Shown piece after piece: positions 36,001 to 39,000 of a stretch of 64,000 nt of DNA (position 1 is its first letter; each line of letters begins with the position of its first letter). Position numbers: made by a program. Origin of the DNA: Candidatus Aenigmatarchaeota archaeon (GTDB taxonomy: Archaea; Aenigmatarchaeota; Aenigmatarchaeia; QMZP01; QMZT01); contig JBGPQP010000004.1 in assembly GCA_041489155.1 (NCBI GenBank), forward strand, positions 1 through 64,000, written 5' to 3'.

Positions 36001-39000
36001 ATCTCCAGCTTGTCCAGGTCCCTGACGAACTGCGCCTCCTTCGTTTTCCGCTCTTCAAATTCCTTCCACAGACCGGTGATTTCCTTCGCCGTTTCATCCG
36101 GCAGGAGCGAAACGATTTTTTTCATGCCTTCTTCCTCGAGTTTTTTCTTCATCTTACCGGGCATCGTCCTGTCCTCTTTCCTGATCCTGCTGGGGATGTC
36201 GCCGGAATAGGCCTCGCACAGGTCGTGGACAAGCGCGAGCTTCACGCACCTGCCGGAATCCAGGCCCGTCTGTTTCGCATAGACGTAAGCCAGAACAGCC
36301 AGCATGAAGGAGTGGTCGGCAACGCTCTCGGACGCTTTAACGCCCTTGAGAATCCAGCCTGCCCTTTTCAGGTGCTTGAGTTTCAAAACTTTTGCCGCAA
36401 AATCCAGCAAATCCATAAAATCAATATTGTGCAGGGTTTTTTATAGGACTGGGCACATTATTTAAAATCCAGACACATAATAAACACTGCAAATAAATAG
36501 ATGCGGGGGTACCCAAGCGGTCAAAGGGGCTAGGCTAAGGTTCACGGCTTTGTCGTAATCTGGCCTGAAGAGAGGGTTAATCCCTTGATGATTAGAAACC
36601 TAGTGCTTTAGTAGCTTCCAGGGTTCGAAAGCGCATGAAGTAGGTAAAACCTGCTTCGCTCGGAATTCCCTGCTCCCGCATTAAATTTATATATTCGCCT
36701 GATAATATTTAGAGATAATTAGCACAATGGTGATTTGTTTGAAAATCAAGGTCATCAGCAAGAAGGGAGAGAATTTCAGGTTTCTTCTGGAGGGGGCGAA
36801 TCCCGCCTTCGCAAATACGCTCAGAAGGATAATGATATCGGAAGTACCGAACATGACCATCGATTCTGTCGAATTCCAGGACAACACGTCAGCGCTGTTC
36901 GACGAAATAATCGCGCACAGGATGGGCATGATACCTTTGCAGTTCGATCCGGACAAGTTCAACGTCATGAAGGACTGCAAATGCGAGGGCAAAGGCTGCC
37001 CGTCATGCCAAGTTTTCTTCGCGCTGGAAAAGACAGGACCGGCGATGGTTTATTCATCCGACCTGAAATCATCGAACAAGAGCGTAAGGCCTACTTCACC
37101 GGATTTCCCGATAGTCAAGCTGCTCAAGGACCAGCACCTGAAGATGGAAGCGACCGCGAGGCTCGGAACCGGCAGGGAGCATGCCAAATTCCAGTCAGCC
37201 AACGTGGCTTACAATTATTTGCCTACCATAGAGGCTTCAAGCTCAGAGGATTTCAAAAGGGTCGTAAGCGCCTGCCCCAAGGGCGTGCTGGAAGTAAAGA
37301 ACAGGAAGCTTGTTCTGGTCGACCCCTACGCATGCAACGAATGCAAGATGTGCGAGGAAACGGACGAGGGGGTAAAGATGAAGGGGGATCCGACGAAATT
37401 CGTGTTCAAGGTCGAGAGCATCTCGGGCCTTGAGCCGGAGTACATAGTCGAGAGGGCCGTGCAGATTCTCGAGGAGAAGGCGAAGGACTTCAAGGAACAA
37501 CTGAAGGAAGTGTAGCATGACGCTGAAGCTCATCGTCTCCTGGATTTTCGGAGGGGCGCTGATAGCAGCGGCCGCGTGGATTCTTGGCCATCTCGACGAG
37601 ACACTGGGCGTTTCGCCTGCATCGTACTGGACCGCGTTTTTCCTTGCCTTCGTGCTCATACTCATAGGCGGCCTAGCGTGGATAAGCGTCGCCACGGCGA
37701 CGTCGAAGCACTAACACGGGAATAAATTCTGAAAAAGCGGTCTGATTCTTGGAAACATTCGCAAGGAATAAAAAGGGGTTGCGACCAATAATAAAGCATG
37801 TTGAACGAAAACGAGATGCAGATACTGGGAGTTTTCAGCCAGCGCCTCCTCATCAGAAGGGACGAGCTGAGAAGCGTCCTTGCTGAGAGCGGCGTCAACG
37901 ACGGCACGATGACGATAAACAGGCTCAGTAGCCTCGGATACCTGAAGTTCATCGAGGCCGTGGGCGCTCCGTGCTACACGATAACGCAAGAGGGGATCAG
38001 GGCACTTAAAAAATAAGTTATAAGCCCCTTCTTTCTTATTATAAATTACTTAGCACAACGTAGATACGCTGATGCAGGTTGAACCTGCGTCTTTTGAGAC
38101 GTTAGCCCCGTGTTGTAGCGGTCAAGCATAAATTTAAACATACAAATTCAACTATATATATGAGGGTAAAACTTTTAGATGGCAAACAAAGAGCATTAAT
38201 AGAGCAAGTAAAAAATAAAAATAATTTTAATTTTAAAGAACTTTCGACATTTCTACGCGTCAATGGAGCAGCATTAAGAGAATGGTATTATGAAAGATGT
38301 CTTTTACCTTACAATATTTTTAGAAAGTTAGATGAAGAAAAAAACTTCGAAAAATTTATAATGGAAATTAGAGAACAGAACTGGGGTCAAAGAGATGGGG
38401 GTAAAAAATCATATGGGAACACAAAGAAAATAAAAAAACCGCTTTTCGACGAAAGATTGGCAGAACTCGTGGGTATTTTATTAGGAGATGGCAACATCTA
38501 TTCGTATAGAAATGTGAAAAACGGTAAAGTAATATCGACGCATAGTATAAGAATTTGTGGTGATTCCAGAAATGATCACGAGTATGTAACGGAACATGTT
38601 TCAAATTTGTTACAAAATCTTTTTGAAATAAAAACTCGTTTGTACAAAAGTAAAAAAAGAAACGCAGTTTATGTAATAGCTGATGGAATTGAACTAGTGA
38701 AATTTTTCAATTCATTTGGCTTGAAACCCGGAAATAAGATAAAAAACAATCTTACGATTCCAGAATGGATATGGCAAGATCCAGTATTTTTGAAATCTTG
38801 CATACGTGGTTTATTTGATACGGATGGTTCAATCTATGAATTAAAACCGCATTGGCCGGGTTTGATTCAAATATCGTTCAGAAATTATAATAAACTCCTC
38901 CTGAAAGATGTAGAAAGAGCCTTGAAACAATTAGGTTTCATTACATCGAAAATACATGACAAAAAAATTTGCATAACGAAACAAAATGAAGTTGATAAAT

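What a model noticed while it worked through the whole genome (the two positions that open the first line are those of the whole stretch)
36503..36680. An A34 tRNA in an archaeon: tRNA-Leu(AAG) with two introns, conserved in the genus, and no tRNA adenosine deaminase gene [...]
C4:36503-36680 encodes tRNA-Leu whose anticodon reads AAG after removal of a canonical 57-nt 37/38 intron and a 37-nt 59/60 intron. Archaea are held to lack ANN tRNAs and the A34 deaminase. The same loop is kept in three sister species with compensatory anticodon-stem changes (CUAGG/CCUAG vs CUGGG/CCCAG). No Leu(GAG) or Leu(CAG) gene was found although CUU, CUC and CUG are the main Leu codons; the only deaminase-fold gene looks like dCMP deaminase.
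Evidence so far: Cloverleaf 26 of 27.5; BHB 4-bp central, 6- and 3-bp outer helices; next placements score 24. Orthologues calls 127, 128, 131, 132. Codons call 134. g00388 hits dCMP deaminases 37-41% id. PMC6000648 passage.
(Added by a program. Inside this text positions count along the whole contig: contig position 1 is position 1 of the stretch shown here. "Call 12" and the like, gene names such as g00115 and contig names such as C1 are that model's own, and its searches are not shown. The text may have been shortened before it was handed on; [...] marks where a part breaks off. The agent that wrote the report below was given it as the finding of a first reader that could run no searches.)

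Follow-up and report, generated by a model that had tools for sequence, protein, structure and literature searches.

The report
Archaeal leucine tRNA with A-starting anticodon
A tiny uncultured archaeon and about half of its relatives carry a real leucine tRNA gene whose anticodon starts with A, a type archaea are said not to have, and they show no known enzyme to edit that A.

Summary
Window 36503-36680 (+) is a class-II tRNA-Leu gene with genomic anticodon AAG, a 57-nt intron at 37/38 and a 37-nt intron at 59/60. A script-spliced product is called tRNA-Leu(aag) by ARAGORN. The anticodon does not depend on intron placement, because relatives carry the same CUAAGGA loop with no loop intron, and one gene is fully intronless.

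I found the AAG gene in 45 of 91 species genomes of the order (Aenigmatarchaeota by record titles). Leu(GAG) is in 9 of 91, and never together with AAG.

Contig C10 holds one Leu gene with two tandem anticodon cassettes, UAG and CAG.

No TadA/ADAT gene is present. The one deaminase-fold gene is a dCMP deaminase, and 13 of 45 AAG genomes have no such fold at all. CUC stays a major codon, at 18-43 per 1000 in AAG species.

A34 is therefore either left unmodified (my preference, about 0.5) or deaminated by an unknown enzyme (about 0.33). No RNA data exist to decide.

A single archaeal precedent is in print (Ferroplasma, PMC6000648). This scan earlier noted an A34 tRNA-Ala in another DPANN archaeon.

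The parts
36503..36540 (+). Exon 1: acceptor 5' strand, D arm, anticodon stem 5' strand, and loop positions 32-37 (CUAAGG).
   Evidence: It is identical in the independent contig of run X2.
36537..36539 (+). Anticodon AAG. A34 lies at 36537.
   Evidence: Hand reading. ARAGORN calls tRNA-Leu(aag) on the script-spliced product. The same CUAAGGA loop occurs without a loop intron in relatives.
36541..36597 (+). Intron 1, 57 nt, at the canonical position 37/38, with a full hBHBh' motif.
   Evidence: central helix of 4 Watson-Crick pairs, bulges GGU and AAA, 6 outer and 3 inner pairs. A homologous intron is present in G002, G003 and G004. All 17 differences of the X2 contig lie here.
36598..36629 (+). 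Exon 2: position 38, anticodon stem 3' strand, long variable arm, T stem 5' strand, and T loop up to position 59.
   Evidence: It is 100% identical to the matching exon of the C10 paralogue.
36630..36666 (+). Intron 2, 37 nt, in the T loop at 59/60, with a relaxed BHB.
   Evidence: central helix of 4 pairs (one G.U), bulges AAA and AUU, 5 outer pairs and only 1 inner pair. It is absent from the G002, G003 and G004 orthologues.
36667..36680 (+). Exon 3: position 60, T stem 3' strand, acceptor 3' strand, and discriminator A73. No CCA is encoded.
36457..36471 (+). A/T-rich box ATTATTTAAAATCCA, about 35-45 nt upstream. It may be an archaeal TATA element (inferred only).
   Evidence: The same words stand upstream of the syntenic G001 locus. 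No transcript data.
1070..1645 (-). The only cytidine/adenosine-deaminase-fold gene of the assembly, dCMP-deaminase-like. It is context for the editing question and not shown to act on tRNA.
   Evidence: PF00383 80 bits, ComEB 94 bits, TadA model 35 bits (cut-off 150). Best solved relatives are dCMP deaminases.

Best explanation
This is a working gene for tRNA-Leu with the anticodon AAG.

How it is made. The precursor carries two bulge-helix-bulge introns, at 37/38 and 59/60. The genome's own splicing endonuclease cuts them out and RtcB joins the exons, giving an 84-nt class-II tRNA. LeuRS charges it through A73 and the long variable arm, not the anticodon. This last point is established knowledge and was not tested here.

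What it replaces. In this archaeon, and in about half of the sampled species of its order (Aenigmatarchaeota), it holds the place of the usual tRNA-Leu(GAG). It is the tRNA meant for CUU and CUC. CUA and CUG are served by UAG and CAG anticodons from a separate gene, and UUA and UUG by UAA and CAA tRNAs.

State of A34. Most carriers encode no TadA/ADAT-type enzyme, and many encode no deaminase-fold protein at all. I therefore think A34 stays an unmodified adenosine. It would pair with U by Watson-Crick geometry and with C by A.C wobble, possibly backed by the UAG tRNA. This is what happens in Mycoplasma and mitochondrial A34 tRNAs.

Shown: the gene, its anatomy, its conservation, the absence of GAG, and the absence of TadA.
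Inferred: splicing, charging, the unmodified state, and the decoding range.

My odds: real functional tRNA-Leu(AAG) about 0.9; A34 left unmodified about 0.5.
For: Gene and anatomy.

The anticodon is independent of intron placement:
- Relatives carry the CUAAGGA loop with no loop intron. G005 is fully intronless. G016, G022, G015, G019, G018, G040, G039 and G023 have introns elsewhere or none.
- ARAGORN itself calls tRNA-Leu(aag) in 13 of 32 archaeal-titled loci and 0 of 27 bacterial-titled loci from a scan of species genomes.
- Rfam's tRNA model scores 51 and 53 bits on 2 of the 5 such loci tested.

Spread: 45 of 91 genomes, one copy each. At least five different Watson-Crick anticodon stems occur (CUAGG, CUGGG, CACGG, CAGGG, CGCGG).

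GAG slot:
- Leu(GAG) appears in 9 of 91 genomes and never with AAG.
- In one genus, G042 has GAG on the same CACGG/CCGUG stem on which nine congeners carry AAG.
- Only four Leu loci exist in this genome.

Purifying selection: the X2 contig has 17 of 17 differences in the intron.

Splicing machinery: EndA (C7:39150-39626) and RtcB (C1:59358-60626) are encoded.

No editing enzyme:
- The TadA model passes its cut-off in 0 of 91 genomes.
- PF02137 is absent from this genome.
- 13 of 45 AAG genomes have no PF00383 hit, and 9 of 12 in family f5.
- The TadA/GuaD-like gene of G002 and G003 is missing at the intact syntenic site in G000.

Precedent: unmodified A34 pairs best with U and modestly with C (abstract of PMC11066159, seen in the listing).
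Against: - No RNA evidence of any kind exists. No RNA run holds the locus, so expression, splicing and the state of A34 are all unobserved.
- CUC is not avoided. It is 22.8 per 1000 here, and 18-43 per 1000 in AAG species of genus g15.
- The CUU share relative to other codon boxes is the same in AAG and GAG species. This fits an inosine, or a G-like reader, better than a weak A.C wobble.
- In nature nearly all A34 tRNAs are deaminated (texts read).
- Genomes are 58-96% complete, so absences are soft.
- 32 of 45 AAG genomes do have some CDA-fold gene.
- Family-level co-occurrence of the dCMP-deaminase homologue with AAG (f1 19/22, f6 10/14, against f5 2/47) leaves a lead open.
- The tRNA inventory of this genome is incomplete. 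I did not locate Pro(GGG) or Thr(GGU).
Confidence: 0.5

Rival explanations
1. The same gene, but A34 is deaminated to inosine by an enzyme that is not a recognisable TadA/ADAT. Candidates are an unknown archaeal tRNA adenosine deaminase, the dCMP-deaminase-like protein (window 1070-1645) in families f1 and f6, or the TadA/GuaD-like protein where it is present. IAG would then read CUU, CUC and weakly CUA, as in eukaryotes and Lactobacillales.
For: - CUC is as common in AAG species as in GAG species, up to 43 per 1000 in G039, with no shift toward CUU.
- 39 of 41 loop-readable AAG genes have C32 and A38, where all 9 GAG genes have U32 and G38. The loop was retuned together with A34.
- A dCMP-deaminase homologue is present in 28 of the 45 AAG genomes.
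- A TadA/GuaD-like protein (71-82 bits on the TadA model) is present in G002, G003 and G020.
- A34 is nearly always inosine in other life.
- From recall, not from a call: archaea make m1I57 with a deaminase that has not been identified.
Against: - No CDA-fold gene in 13 of 45 AAG genomes, and in 9 of 12 in f5.
- TadA-like genes of 50 bits or more occur in 4 AAG, 2 GAG and 2 other genomes, so there is no association.
- The G000 protein has the dCMP-deaminase hallmarks and best matches solved dCMP deaminases.
- The co-occurrence follows families, and kin are not independent. It fails inside f5, and one GAG genome (G052) has the homologue.
Confidence: 0.33
2. A34 carries some other modification, or the tRNA reads only CUU. 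CUC would then be read by tRNA-Leu(UAG) through four-way (superwobble) reading.
For: - A UAG anticodon is kept in every AAG genome that I looked at in detail. G000 is shown. G039, G027 and G036 are shown.
- Codon usage shows no dependence on G34 versus A34. That is what one expects if another tRNA covers CUC, or if selection on codons is weak.
Against: - There is no direct evidence.
- Keeping a dedicated CUY tRNA in 45 genomes argues that it does real work.
- CUC is the commonest Leu codon in several AAG species, which would overload a superwobbling tRNA.
Confidence: 0.12
3. The gene is an artefact or a pseudogene. The anticodon would come from a misplaced intron or an assembly error, or the gene would be decaying.
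For: - Standard finders miss the gene.
- A strict BHB arises by chance in 11% of shuffles.
- ARAGORN's intron mode invents other ANN anticodons in this genome. Its 'agc' at C11 is really GGC, and its 'agt' at C10 is the tandem Leu gene.
Against: - Intronless and loop-intron-free orthologues carry the same loop.
- Independent assemblies carry identical exons.
- Stem changes are compensatory.
- The gene is single-copy and excludes GAG across 91 genomes.
- All alternative 7-nt loops also start with A.
Confidence: 0.03

Closest known systems
tRNA-Leu(AAG) of Ferroplasma acidarmanus fer1 (PMC6000648; passages read)
   Same: It is an archaeal tRNA-Leu with A34. Leu(GAG) is absent from the same genome, and the authors derive the gene from a GAG gene by anticodon mutation.
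   Different: It is a single species of Thermoplasmatales, described as a species-specific gain, and it has no introns. Here the tRNA is kept in 45 of 91 species of a DPANN order, across at least four families, often with introns. Its loop mostly differs from the GAG loop at positions 32 and 38 as well.
tRNA-Leu(AAG) of Lactobacillales and other bacteria, edited to IAG by TadA (as summarised in bioRxiv 10.64898/2026.05.15.725136; passages read)
   Same: A34 replaces G34 in the CUN box, the GAG gene is lost, and the tRNA is retained across genera.
   Different: Those bacteria encode TadA. According to that text, 88% of species with a non-ACG ANN tRNA do. Here 0 of 91 genomes reach the TadA cut-off, and many have no deaminase fold at all.
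Unmodified A34 tRNAs of reduced genomes: Mycoplasma tRNA-Thr(AGU) and yeast mitochondrial tRNA-Arg(ACG). These are recalled; they are cited as Andachi 1987, Inagaki 1995 and Boren 1993 in the text.
   Same: A small genome, a four-fold codon box, and no A34 deaminase acting on the tRNA. This is the model for my preferred mechanism.
   Different: There the A34 tRNA is the only reader of its box. Here UAG and CAG anticodons coexist with it. The domain also differs (archaea).
Eukaryotic tRNA-Leu(IAG) made by ADAT2/ADAT3
   Same: The same anticodon gene sequence and the same codon box.
   Different: It needs the ADAT2/3 heterodimer, and no homologue passes here. The introns are of the BHB type in both, but the 59/60 position is archaeal.
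A34 tRNA-Ala(AGC) in another DPANN archaeon
   Same: An archaeal A34 tRNA in the slot of the G34 gene, kept in related species.
   Different: A different amino acid, lineage and DNA. In this genome Ala is GGC.

Membership tests
tRNA (Rfam RF00005), class II tRNA-Leu | A cloverleaf with a 7-bp acceptor stem, D, anticodon and T arms, and a 7-nt anticodon loop with U33. | tested here: met
   ARAGORN on the script-spliced product gives tRNA-Leu(aag), 84 nt. The unspliced gene is missed. Intronless relatives score 51 and 53 bits on RF00005, in 2 of the 5 loci tested.
tRNA (Rfam RF00005), class II tRNA-Leu | A long variable arm and discriminator A73. These are the archaeal Leu identity elements, taken from established knowledge. 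| tested here: met
   Hand reading. The variable arm is UGCUUUAGUAGCUUC and position 73 is A. The exons are near-identical to the three other Leu genes of the genome.
Archaeal BHB (EndA-dependent) tRNA intron | Two 3-nt bulges separated by a 4-bp helix, with flanking helices. | tested here: met
   Intron 1 has the full motif (6 outer, 4 central and 3 inner pairs). Intron 2 has 5 outer, 4 central and 1 inner pair (relaxed form).
Archaeal BHB (EndA-dependent) tRNA intron | Splicing endonuclease and RNA ligase encoded in the genome. | tested here: met
   PF01974 finds two domains in one 404-aa frame at C7:39150-39626. RtcB scores 519 bits at C1:59358-60626.
Archaeal BHB (EndA-dependent) tRNA intron | The introns are actually removed at the predicted sites. 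| not testable with these tools
   No RNA run holds the locus.
I34 tRNA (TadA/ADAT substrate) | A34 encoded in the gene. | tested here: met
   with the orthologues.
I34 tRNA (TadA/ADAT substrate) | A TadA or ADAT2 orthologue in the same genome. | tested here: not met
   The NF008113 best hit in G000 is 20 bits in the genome scan and 35 bits on the protein, against a cut-off of 150. 0 of 91 genomes pass the cut-off. The assembly is 89.65% complete.
I34 tRNA (TadA/ADAT substrate) | Inosine at position 34 of the mature RNA. | not testable with these tools
   No RNA data.
A34-for-G34 replacement in a four-fold codon box | The GNN isoacceptor of the same box is absent from genomes that carry the ANN gene. 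| tested here: met
   0 of 45 AAG genomes show a Leu(GAG) loop, and 0 of 9 GAG genomes show AAG. Only four Leu loci exist in G000. Loops split by introns could be missed.
A34-for-G34 replacement in a four-fold codon box | Codon usage shifted toward the U-ending codon. | tested here: not met
   The CUU share minus the mean of six other boxes is +0.07 to +0.15 in 15 of the 16 AAG genomes sampled (-0.14 in G083). It is +0.04 to +0.16 in the five GAG genomes sampled.

The most novel reading that the evidence does not exclude
A whole order of DPANN archaea reads the abundant CUC and CUU leucine codons through an A34 tRNA that is turned into inosine by a tRNA adenosine deaminase unrelated to TadA/ADAT. 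That would be the first I34 system in Archaea and a new enzyme class. In family f1 it would sit beside a single Leu gene that yields both UAG and CAG isoacceptors by either-or BHB splicing.
Probability: 0.3. Interest if true: 0.85.

Novelty: new variant of a known kind. Interest (0 to 1): 0.62.

Why it matters
Reviews and surveys state that archaea have neither ANN tRNAs nor the A34 deaminase. One preprint counts 3 ANN among 10,517 archaeal tRNAs in GtRNAdb. PMC6000648 treats the few cases as species-specific gains.

Here an A34 tRNA is the standing solution for CUY codons in about half of a sampled archaeal order. These genomes have no recognisable editing enzyme, and CUC remains one of the commonest codons.

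That makes an old question directly testable in a natural system: can a bare A34 serve a heavily used C-ending codon, or is there an undiscovered deaminase? One tRNA-seq experiment on an Aenigmatarchaeota enrichment would decide it.

There is also a practical point. Standard tRNA finders miss or mis-call these genes, so tRNA surveys of DPANN genomes are biased.

Tried and rejected
1. RNA evidence. No RNA holder is listed for the locus. All four runs that I laid are DNA contigs.

2. Direct detection. ARAGORN, Rfam and RF00005 all miss the unspliced gene. ARAGORN's intron mode gives wrong anticodons elsewhere (checked).

3. BHB statistics. The motif alone is not significant.

4. Full tRNA inventory by genome-wide BHB removal plus ARAGORN.
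- The first version had an index error, which I fixed.
- The output is noisy and incomplete.
- It added Glu(CUC), Cys(GCA), Met, Pro(CGG), Gly(CCC) and Arg(UCU).
- It did not locate Pro(GGG) or Thr(GGU). I therefore cannot say that Leu is the only A34 tRNA of this genome.

5. Enumeration of two and three introns on the tandem genes.
- The thresholds were permissive, so there were many spurious products.
- Only the expected UAG product (G000) and the UAG and CAG products (G006) are meaningful.
- Nothing came out for G001, G008 and G007.

6. Codon-usage test for CUC avoidance or a CUU shift. No signal.

7. Association of the dCMP-deaminase homologue with AAG. It follows families and fails in f5.

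8. Blast half-hits at C4:68063, C7:20489, C15:2690 and C9:25122. They are not tRNA.

9. The G001 orthologue. Its 5' part is withheld as N, and I left it unread.

10. Literature.
- No paper was found on A34 tRNAs in DPANN or Aenigmarchaeota. The searches were 'archaea, inosine, A34, tRNA, anticodon', 'Aenigmarchaeota, tRNA, intron, anticodon', 'DPANN, wobble, inosine, tRNA' and 'archaea, tRNA-Leu, AAG, TadA'.
- No paper was found on cis alternative BHB splicing.
- I did not read Supplementary Table S3 of PMC6000648. The supplements of the preprint are closed. Either may list further archaeal ANN cases.
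Full report
**What is at the coordinates.**
Window 36503-36680 (+) reads as a class-II tRNA.
- The acceptor stem is GCGGGGG/CUCCCGC (one G.U), and the discriminator is A73.
- The D arm is CCCAAGCGGUCAAAGGG, the kind seen in the genome's other Leu genes.
- The anticodon stem is CUAGG/CCUAG.
- A long variable arm and the T stem CAGGG/CCCUG follow.

Two inserts interrupt it. One is 57 nt (36541-36597), between CUAAGG and A. The other is 37 nt (36630-36666), after UUCGAA in the T loop.

Both inserts sit in bulge-helix-bulge motifs.
- Intron 1 has a central helix CUAA/UUAG of four Watson-Crick pairs, bulges GGU and AAA, six outer pairs and three inner pairs.
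- Intron 2 has a four-pair central helix with one G.U, bulges AAA and AUU, five outer pairs (the T stem) and a single inner pair.

Removing both in a script gives an 84-nt product that ARAGORN calls tRNA-Leu(aag) with a full cloverleaf. Any other way of making a 7-nt loop from the two flanks also gives an anticodon that starts with A (AAG, AGA or AAA; hand enumeration). The unspliced gene is invisible to ARAGORN, to Rfam on the window and to RF00005 on the genome.

**Is it more than chance?**
The BHB motif alone is not. An equally strict motif appears in 114 of 1000 shuffles of the gene and 1.7 times per kb of genome. The decisive evidence is comparative.
- A DNA search of the window's own genome plus 40 relatives finds orthologues in G002, G003 and G004, at 84-85% identity over the first 127 nt.
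- These have the same CUAAGG...A loop and a homologous intron.
- Their anticodon stem is CUGGG/CCCAG and their variable-arm stem is GGC/GCC. Both are compensatory changes. They have no T-loop intron.
- The fifth species of the genus, G001, has the syntenic locus, but its 5' part is withheld as N.

Outside the genus the same loop CUAAGGA stands with no intron in it.
- G005 is fully intronless.
- G016 has only a variable-arm intron.
- G015, G019, G018, G022 and G023 have an intron at 30/31.
- G039 and G040 have none in the anticodon arm.

So the anticodon does not depend on where I place the intron.

Independent assemblies agree. A 14.6-kb contig from another metagenome (run X2) covers 36300-36629. 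All 17 of its differences lie inside intron 1, and none lies in the exons.

**How widespread.**
- The pattern GCTAAGGACCNNNTRNNTWA (loop, 3' stem, start of the variable arm) hits 38 of 91 species genomes of the order. Each has one copy, and the reversed control has none.
- A looser pattern adds three tRNA-like hits: G014 (loop UUAAGGA), G050 (UUAAGGG) and G081. That pattern also gives chance hits, and its control is not empty.
- With the four loop-intron genes of genus g1, the total is 45 of 91. By family this is f1 20/23, f6 12/14, f2 1/1, f5 12/47, f3 0/5 and f4 0/1.

A scan of one genome per prokaryotic species with CAAAGGNGNNNNGCTAAGGAC gave 59 loci.
- ARAGORN calls tRNA-Leu(aag) in 13 of the 32 with archaeal titles. 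Fourteen of those titles say Candidatus Aenigmatarchaeota. Others say Woesearchaeota, Nanoarchaeota, Nanohalarchaeota, Micrarchaeota, Bathyarchaeia or simply archaeon.
- It calls none in the 27 with bacterial titles.

Earlier notes of this scan also call this genome Aenigmatarchaeota.

**It takes the place of Leu(GAG).**
- The matching pattern for GAG hits 13 genomes, of which 9 look like tRNA. All nine have the loop UUGAGGG.
- None of these nine has AAG, and none of the 45 AAG genomes has GAG.
- In genus g15, G042 carries an intronless Leu(GAG) on the stem CACGG/CCGUG. Nine congeners carry AAG on that stem or on its one-base variant CCGUA.
- In G000, BLAST with the exons finds only four Leu loci. 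They are the window gene (AAG), C3:95076-95213 (UAA, canonical intron), C6:10228-10386 (CAA, introns at 30/31 and in the variable arm) and C10:26055-26211.

Its exons are nearly identical to those of the window gene. After position 30 comes an intron, then two tandem cassettes, G-UUUAGG and G-UUCAGG, then a shared 3' splice site before G-CCUAG.
- The 5' site pairs equally with either copy of GGUAUGGCC-AAG. The central helix has four pairs, and the inner helix has 5 or 10.
- Constrained folds of the two forms are close, -45.6 and -43.8 kcal/mol.
- Script-spliced products are called Leu(tag) in G000, and Leu(tag) and Leu(cag) in G006.
- The cassette pair AAGTTTAGG-N7-AAGTTCAGG is in 19 of 23 genomes of family f1 and in 0 of 68 others.
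- Stand-alone UAG or CAG loops are in 0 of 23 f1 genomes, but in 14 of 14 in f6, 20 of 47 in f5 and 3 of 5 in f3. They are often adjacent genes.

So UAG and CAG anticodons are encoded here, most likely through either-or splicing of one precursor. This is inferred. There is no RNA evidence, and I found no paper describing it.

**Codons.**
- In 1130 long ORFs of G000, CUU is 23.1 per 1000, CUC 22.8, CUG 26.8, CUA 3.7, UUG 9.0 and UUA 4.1.
- CUU/(CUU+CUC) is 0.50, against a mean of about 0.36 for six other four-fold boxes.
- The same excess is seen in GAG genomes. It is +0.04 to +0.16 in five GAG genomes. It is -0.14 to +0.15 in sixteen AAG genomes, fifteen of them positive.
- In AAG species of genus g15, CUC runs from 18 to 43 per 1000 and is the top Leu codon in several.

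There is thus no sign that A34 limits CUC.

**Deaminases.**
G000 has one CDA-fold gene, at window 1070-1645 (minus strand).
- It scores 94 bits on ComEB and 80 on PF00383, but only 35 on the TadA model, whose cut-off is 150.
- Its best solved relatives are dCMP deaminases (2hvv at 2e-20).
- PF02137, the ADAR/ADAT1 type, is absent.

Across the order:
- The TadA model passes its cut-off in 0 of 91 genomes.
- Eight genomes hold TadA/guanine-deaminase-like genes of 54-118 bits. Four of them are AAG, two are GAG and two are neither.
- Sister species G002 and G003 are among them. Their protein matches Aquifex TadA at 1e-20 and Bacillus guanine deaminase at 3e-20.
- In G000 the syntenic flank on C23 is intact, and the gene is not there.
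- PF00383 is found in 47 of 91 genomes. 13 of 45 AAG genomes have no hit, as do 9 of 12 in family f5. That is more than 66-91% completeness would explain.
- The dCMP-deaminase homologue follows families (f1 19/22, f6 10/14, f5 2/47). It is also in one GAG genome. This is therefore a phylogenetic pattern, not an association.

**Mechanism.**
Shown:
- a conserved, single-copy Leu gene with A34 in the GAG slot;
- splice signals;
- a splicing endonuclease with two catalytic-type domains in one 404-aa frame, and RtcB;
- no TadA/ADAT.

Inferred:
- The precursor is cut at both BHBs and ligated.
- LeuRS charges it through A73 and the variable arm.
- It reads CUU and CUC.

For the state of A34 I prefer an unmodified adenosine (about 0.5). 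No candidate enzyme is shared by the carriers, and reduced genomes are where bare A34 tRNAs are known. The abstract of PMC11066159, seen in the listing, states that unmodified A34 pairs best with U and modestly with C.

The rival, inosine made by an unknown enzyme (about 0.33), is favoured by two things. One is the heavy, unshifted use of CUC. The other is the retuned loop: 39 of 41 readable AAG loops have C32 and A38, against U32 and G38 in all nine GAG loops. Other modifications, or CUC reading by the UAG tRNA, take about 0.12. An artefact or pseudogene takes about 0.03.

**Comparison with what is known.**
- PMC6000648 (passages read) found ANN tRNAs nearly absent from 167 archaeal genomes. 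It did report Leu(AAG) replacing GAG in Ferroplasma acidarmanus, as a species-specific gain.
- A 2026 preprint (passages read) counts three ANN among 10,517 archaeal tRNAs. [quoted passage not shown] It describes Leu(AAG) replacing GAG in Lactobacillales, where TadA is present.

The present case works like those replacements but differs in three ways: its scale (an archaeal order), the lack of an editing enzyme, and the intron context. I file it as a new variant of a known kind. This scan earlier noted an A34 tRNA-Ala in another DPANN lineage (e1-3201499, unchecked), so A34 tRNAs may be a wider DPANN trait.

**Limits.**
- There is no RNA evidence.
- The genomes are incomplete MAGs, one per species, and kin are not independent.
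- Pattern searches miss loops that are split by introns.
- The tRNA inventory of G000 is incomplete.
- I did not read the supplementary tables of the two papers.

Noticed in passing
G000:C10:26055-26211 (-), outside the window. Also L009, L012 and L020 (family f1), and L008, L010, L026 and L033 (other layouts).: One tRNA-Leu gene carries two tandem anticodon cassettes, G-UUUAGG and G-UUCAGG. They share the 5' exon, the 3' exon and the splice-site partners. Either-or BHB splicing would give Leu(UAG) or Leu(CAG) from one precursor. The cassette pair is in 19 of 23 genomes of family f1 and in 0 of 68 others. Stand-alone UAG or CAG loops are in 0 of 23 f1 genomes and are common elsewhere, often as adjacent genes. 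The two folds are near iso-energetic. I found no RNA evidence and no paper. This may be more novel than the assigned finding.
   Followed up: partly
window 39060-39272 (+): A multi-intron tRNA. By hand it reads as tRNA-Gln(UUG), with acceptor AGCCCCG and loop CUUUGGA. ARAGORN calls it Arg, His, Gln, Phe or Pro depending on the splice it guesses.
   Followed up: partly
G000:C11:17335-17434 (-): tRNA-Ala(GGC) with a 28-nt BHB intron at 33/34. ARAGORN's intron mode reports it as Ala(agc), a false A34.
   Followed up: yes
L085:1468-1959 (G002), L086 (G003), L083:1342-1815 (G020); G000:C23 around 5115: A 157-163-aa TadA/guanine-deaminase-like gene (HAE...PCPMC) is present in some species carrying Leu(AAG). 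It is missing from the intact syntenic site in G000. Across the order it is patchy and unrelated to AAG versus GAG.
   Followed up: partly
G042:C90:3839-3925 (L087), compared with L088, L095 and L104: Within one genus, one species has an intronless Leu(GAG) with loop UUGAGGG. Nine others have Leu(AAG) with loop CUAAGGA on the same stem or a one-base variant of it, so three loop positions changed together.
   Followed up: partly
window 36630-36666, compared with L002-L004: The T-loop (59/60) intron of the window gene is absent from the three readable congeners. This is an intron gain or loss within a genus.
   Followed up: no
G000:C7:39150-39626 (+): The splicing endonuclease is a single 404-aa frame with two endonuclease-domain matches (72 and 26 bits). 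This suggests a fused multi-unit form of the kind tied to broad intron specificity.
   Followed up: no
whole genome G000: CUA is strongly avoided. CUA/(CUA+CUG) is 0.12, against 0.27-0.56 for the A-ending share in the other four-fold boxes.
   Followed up: no
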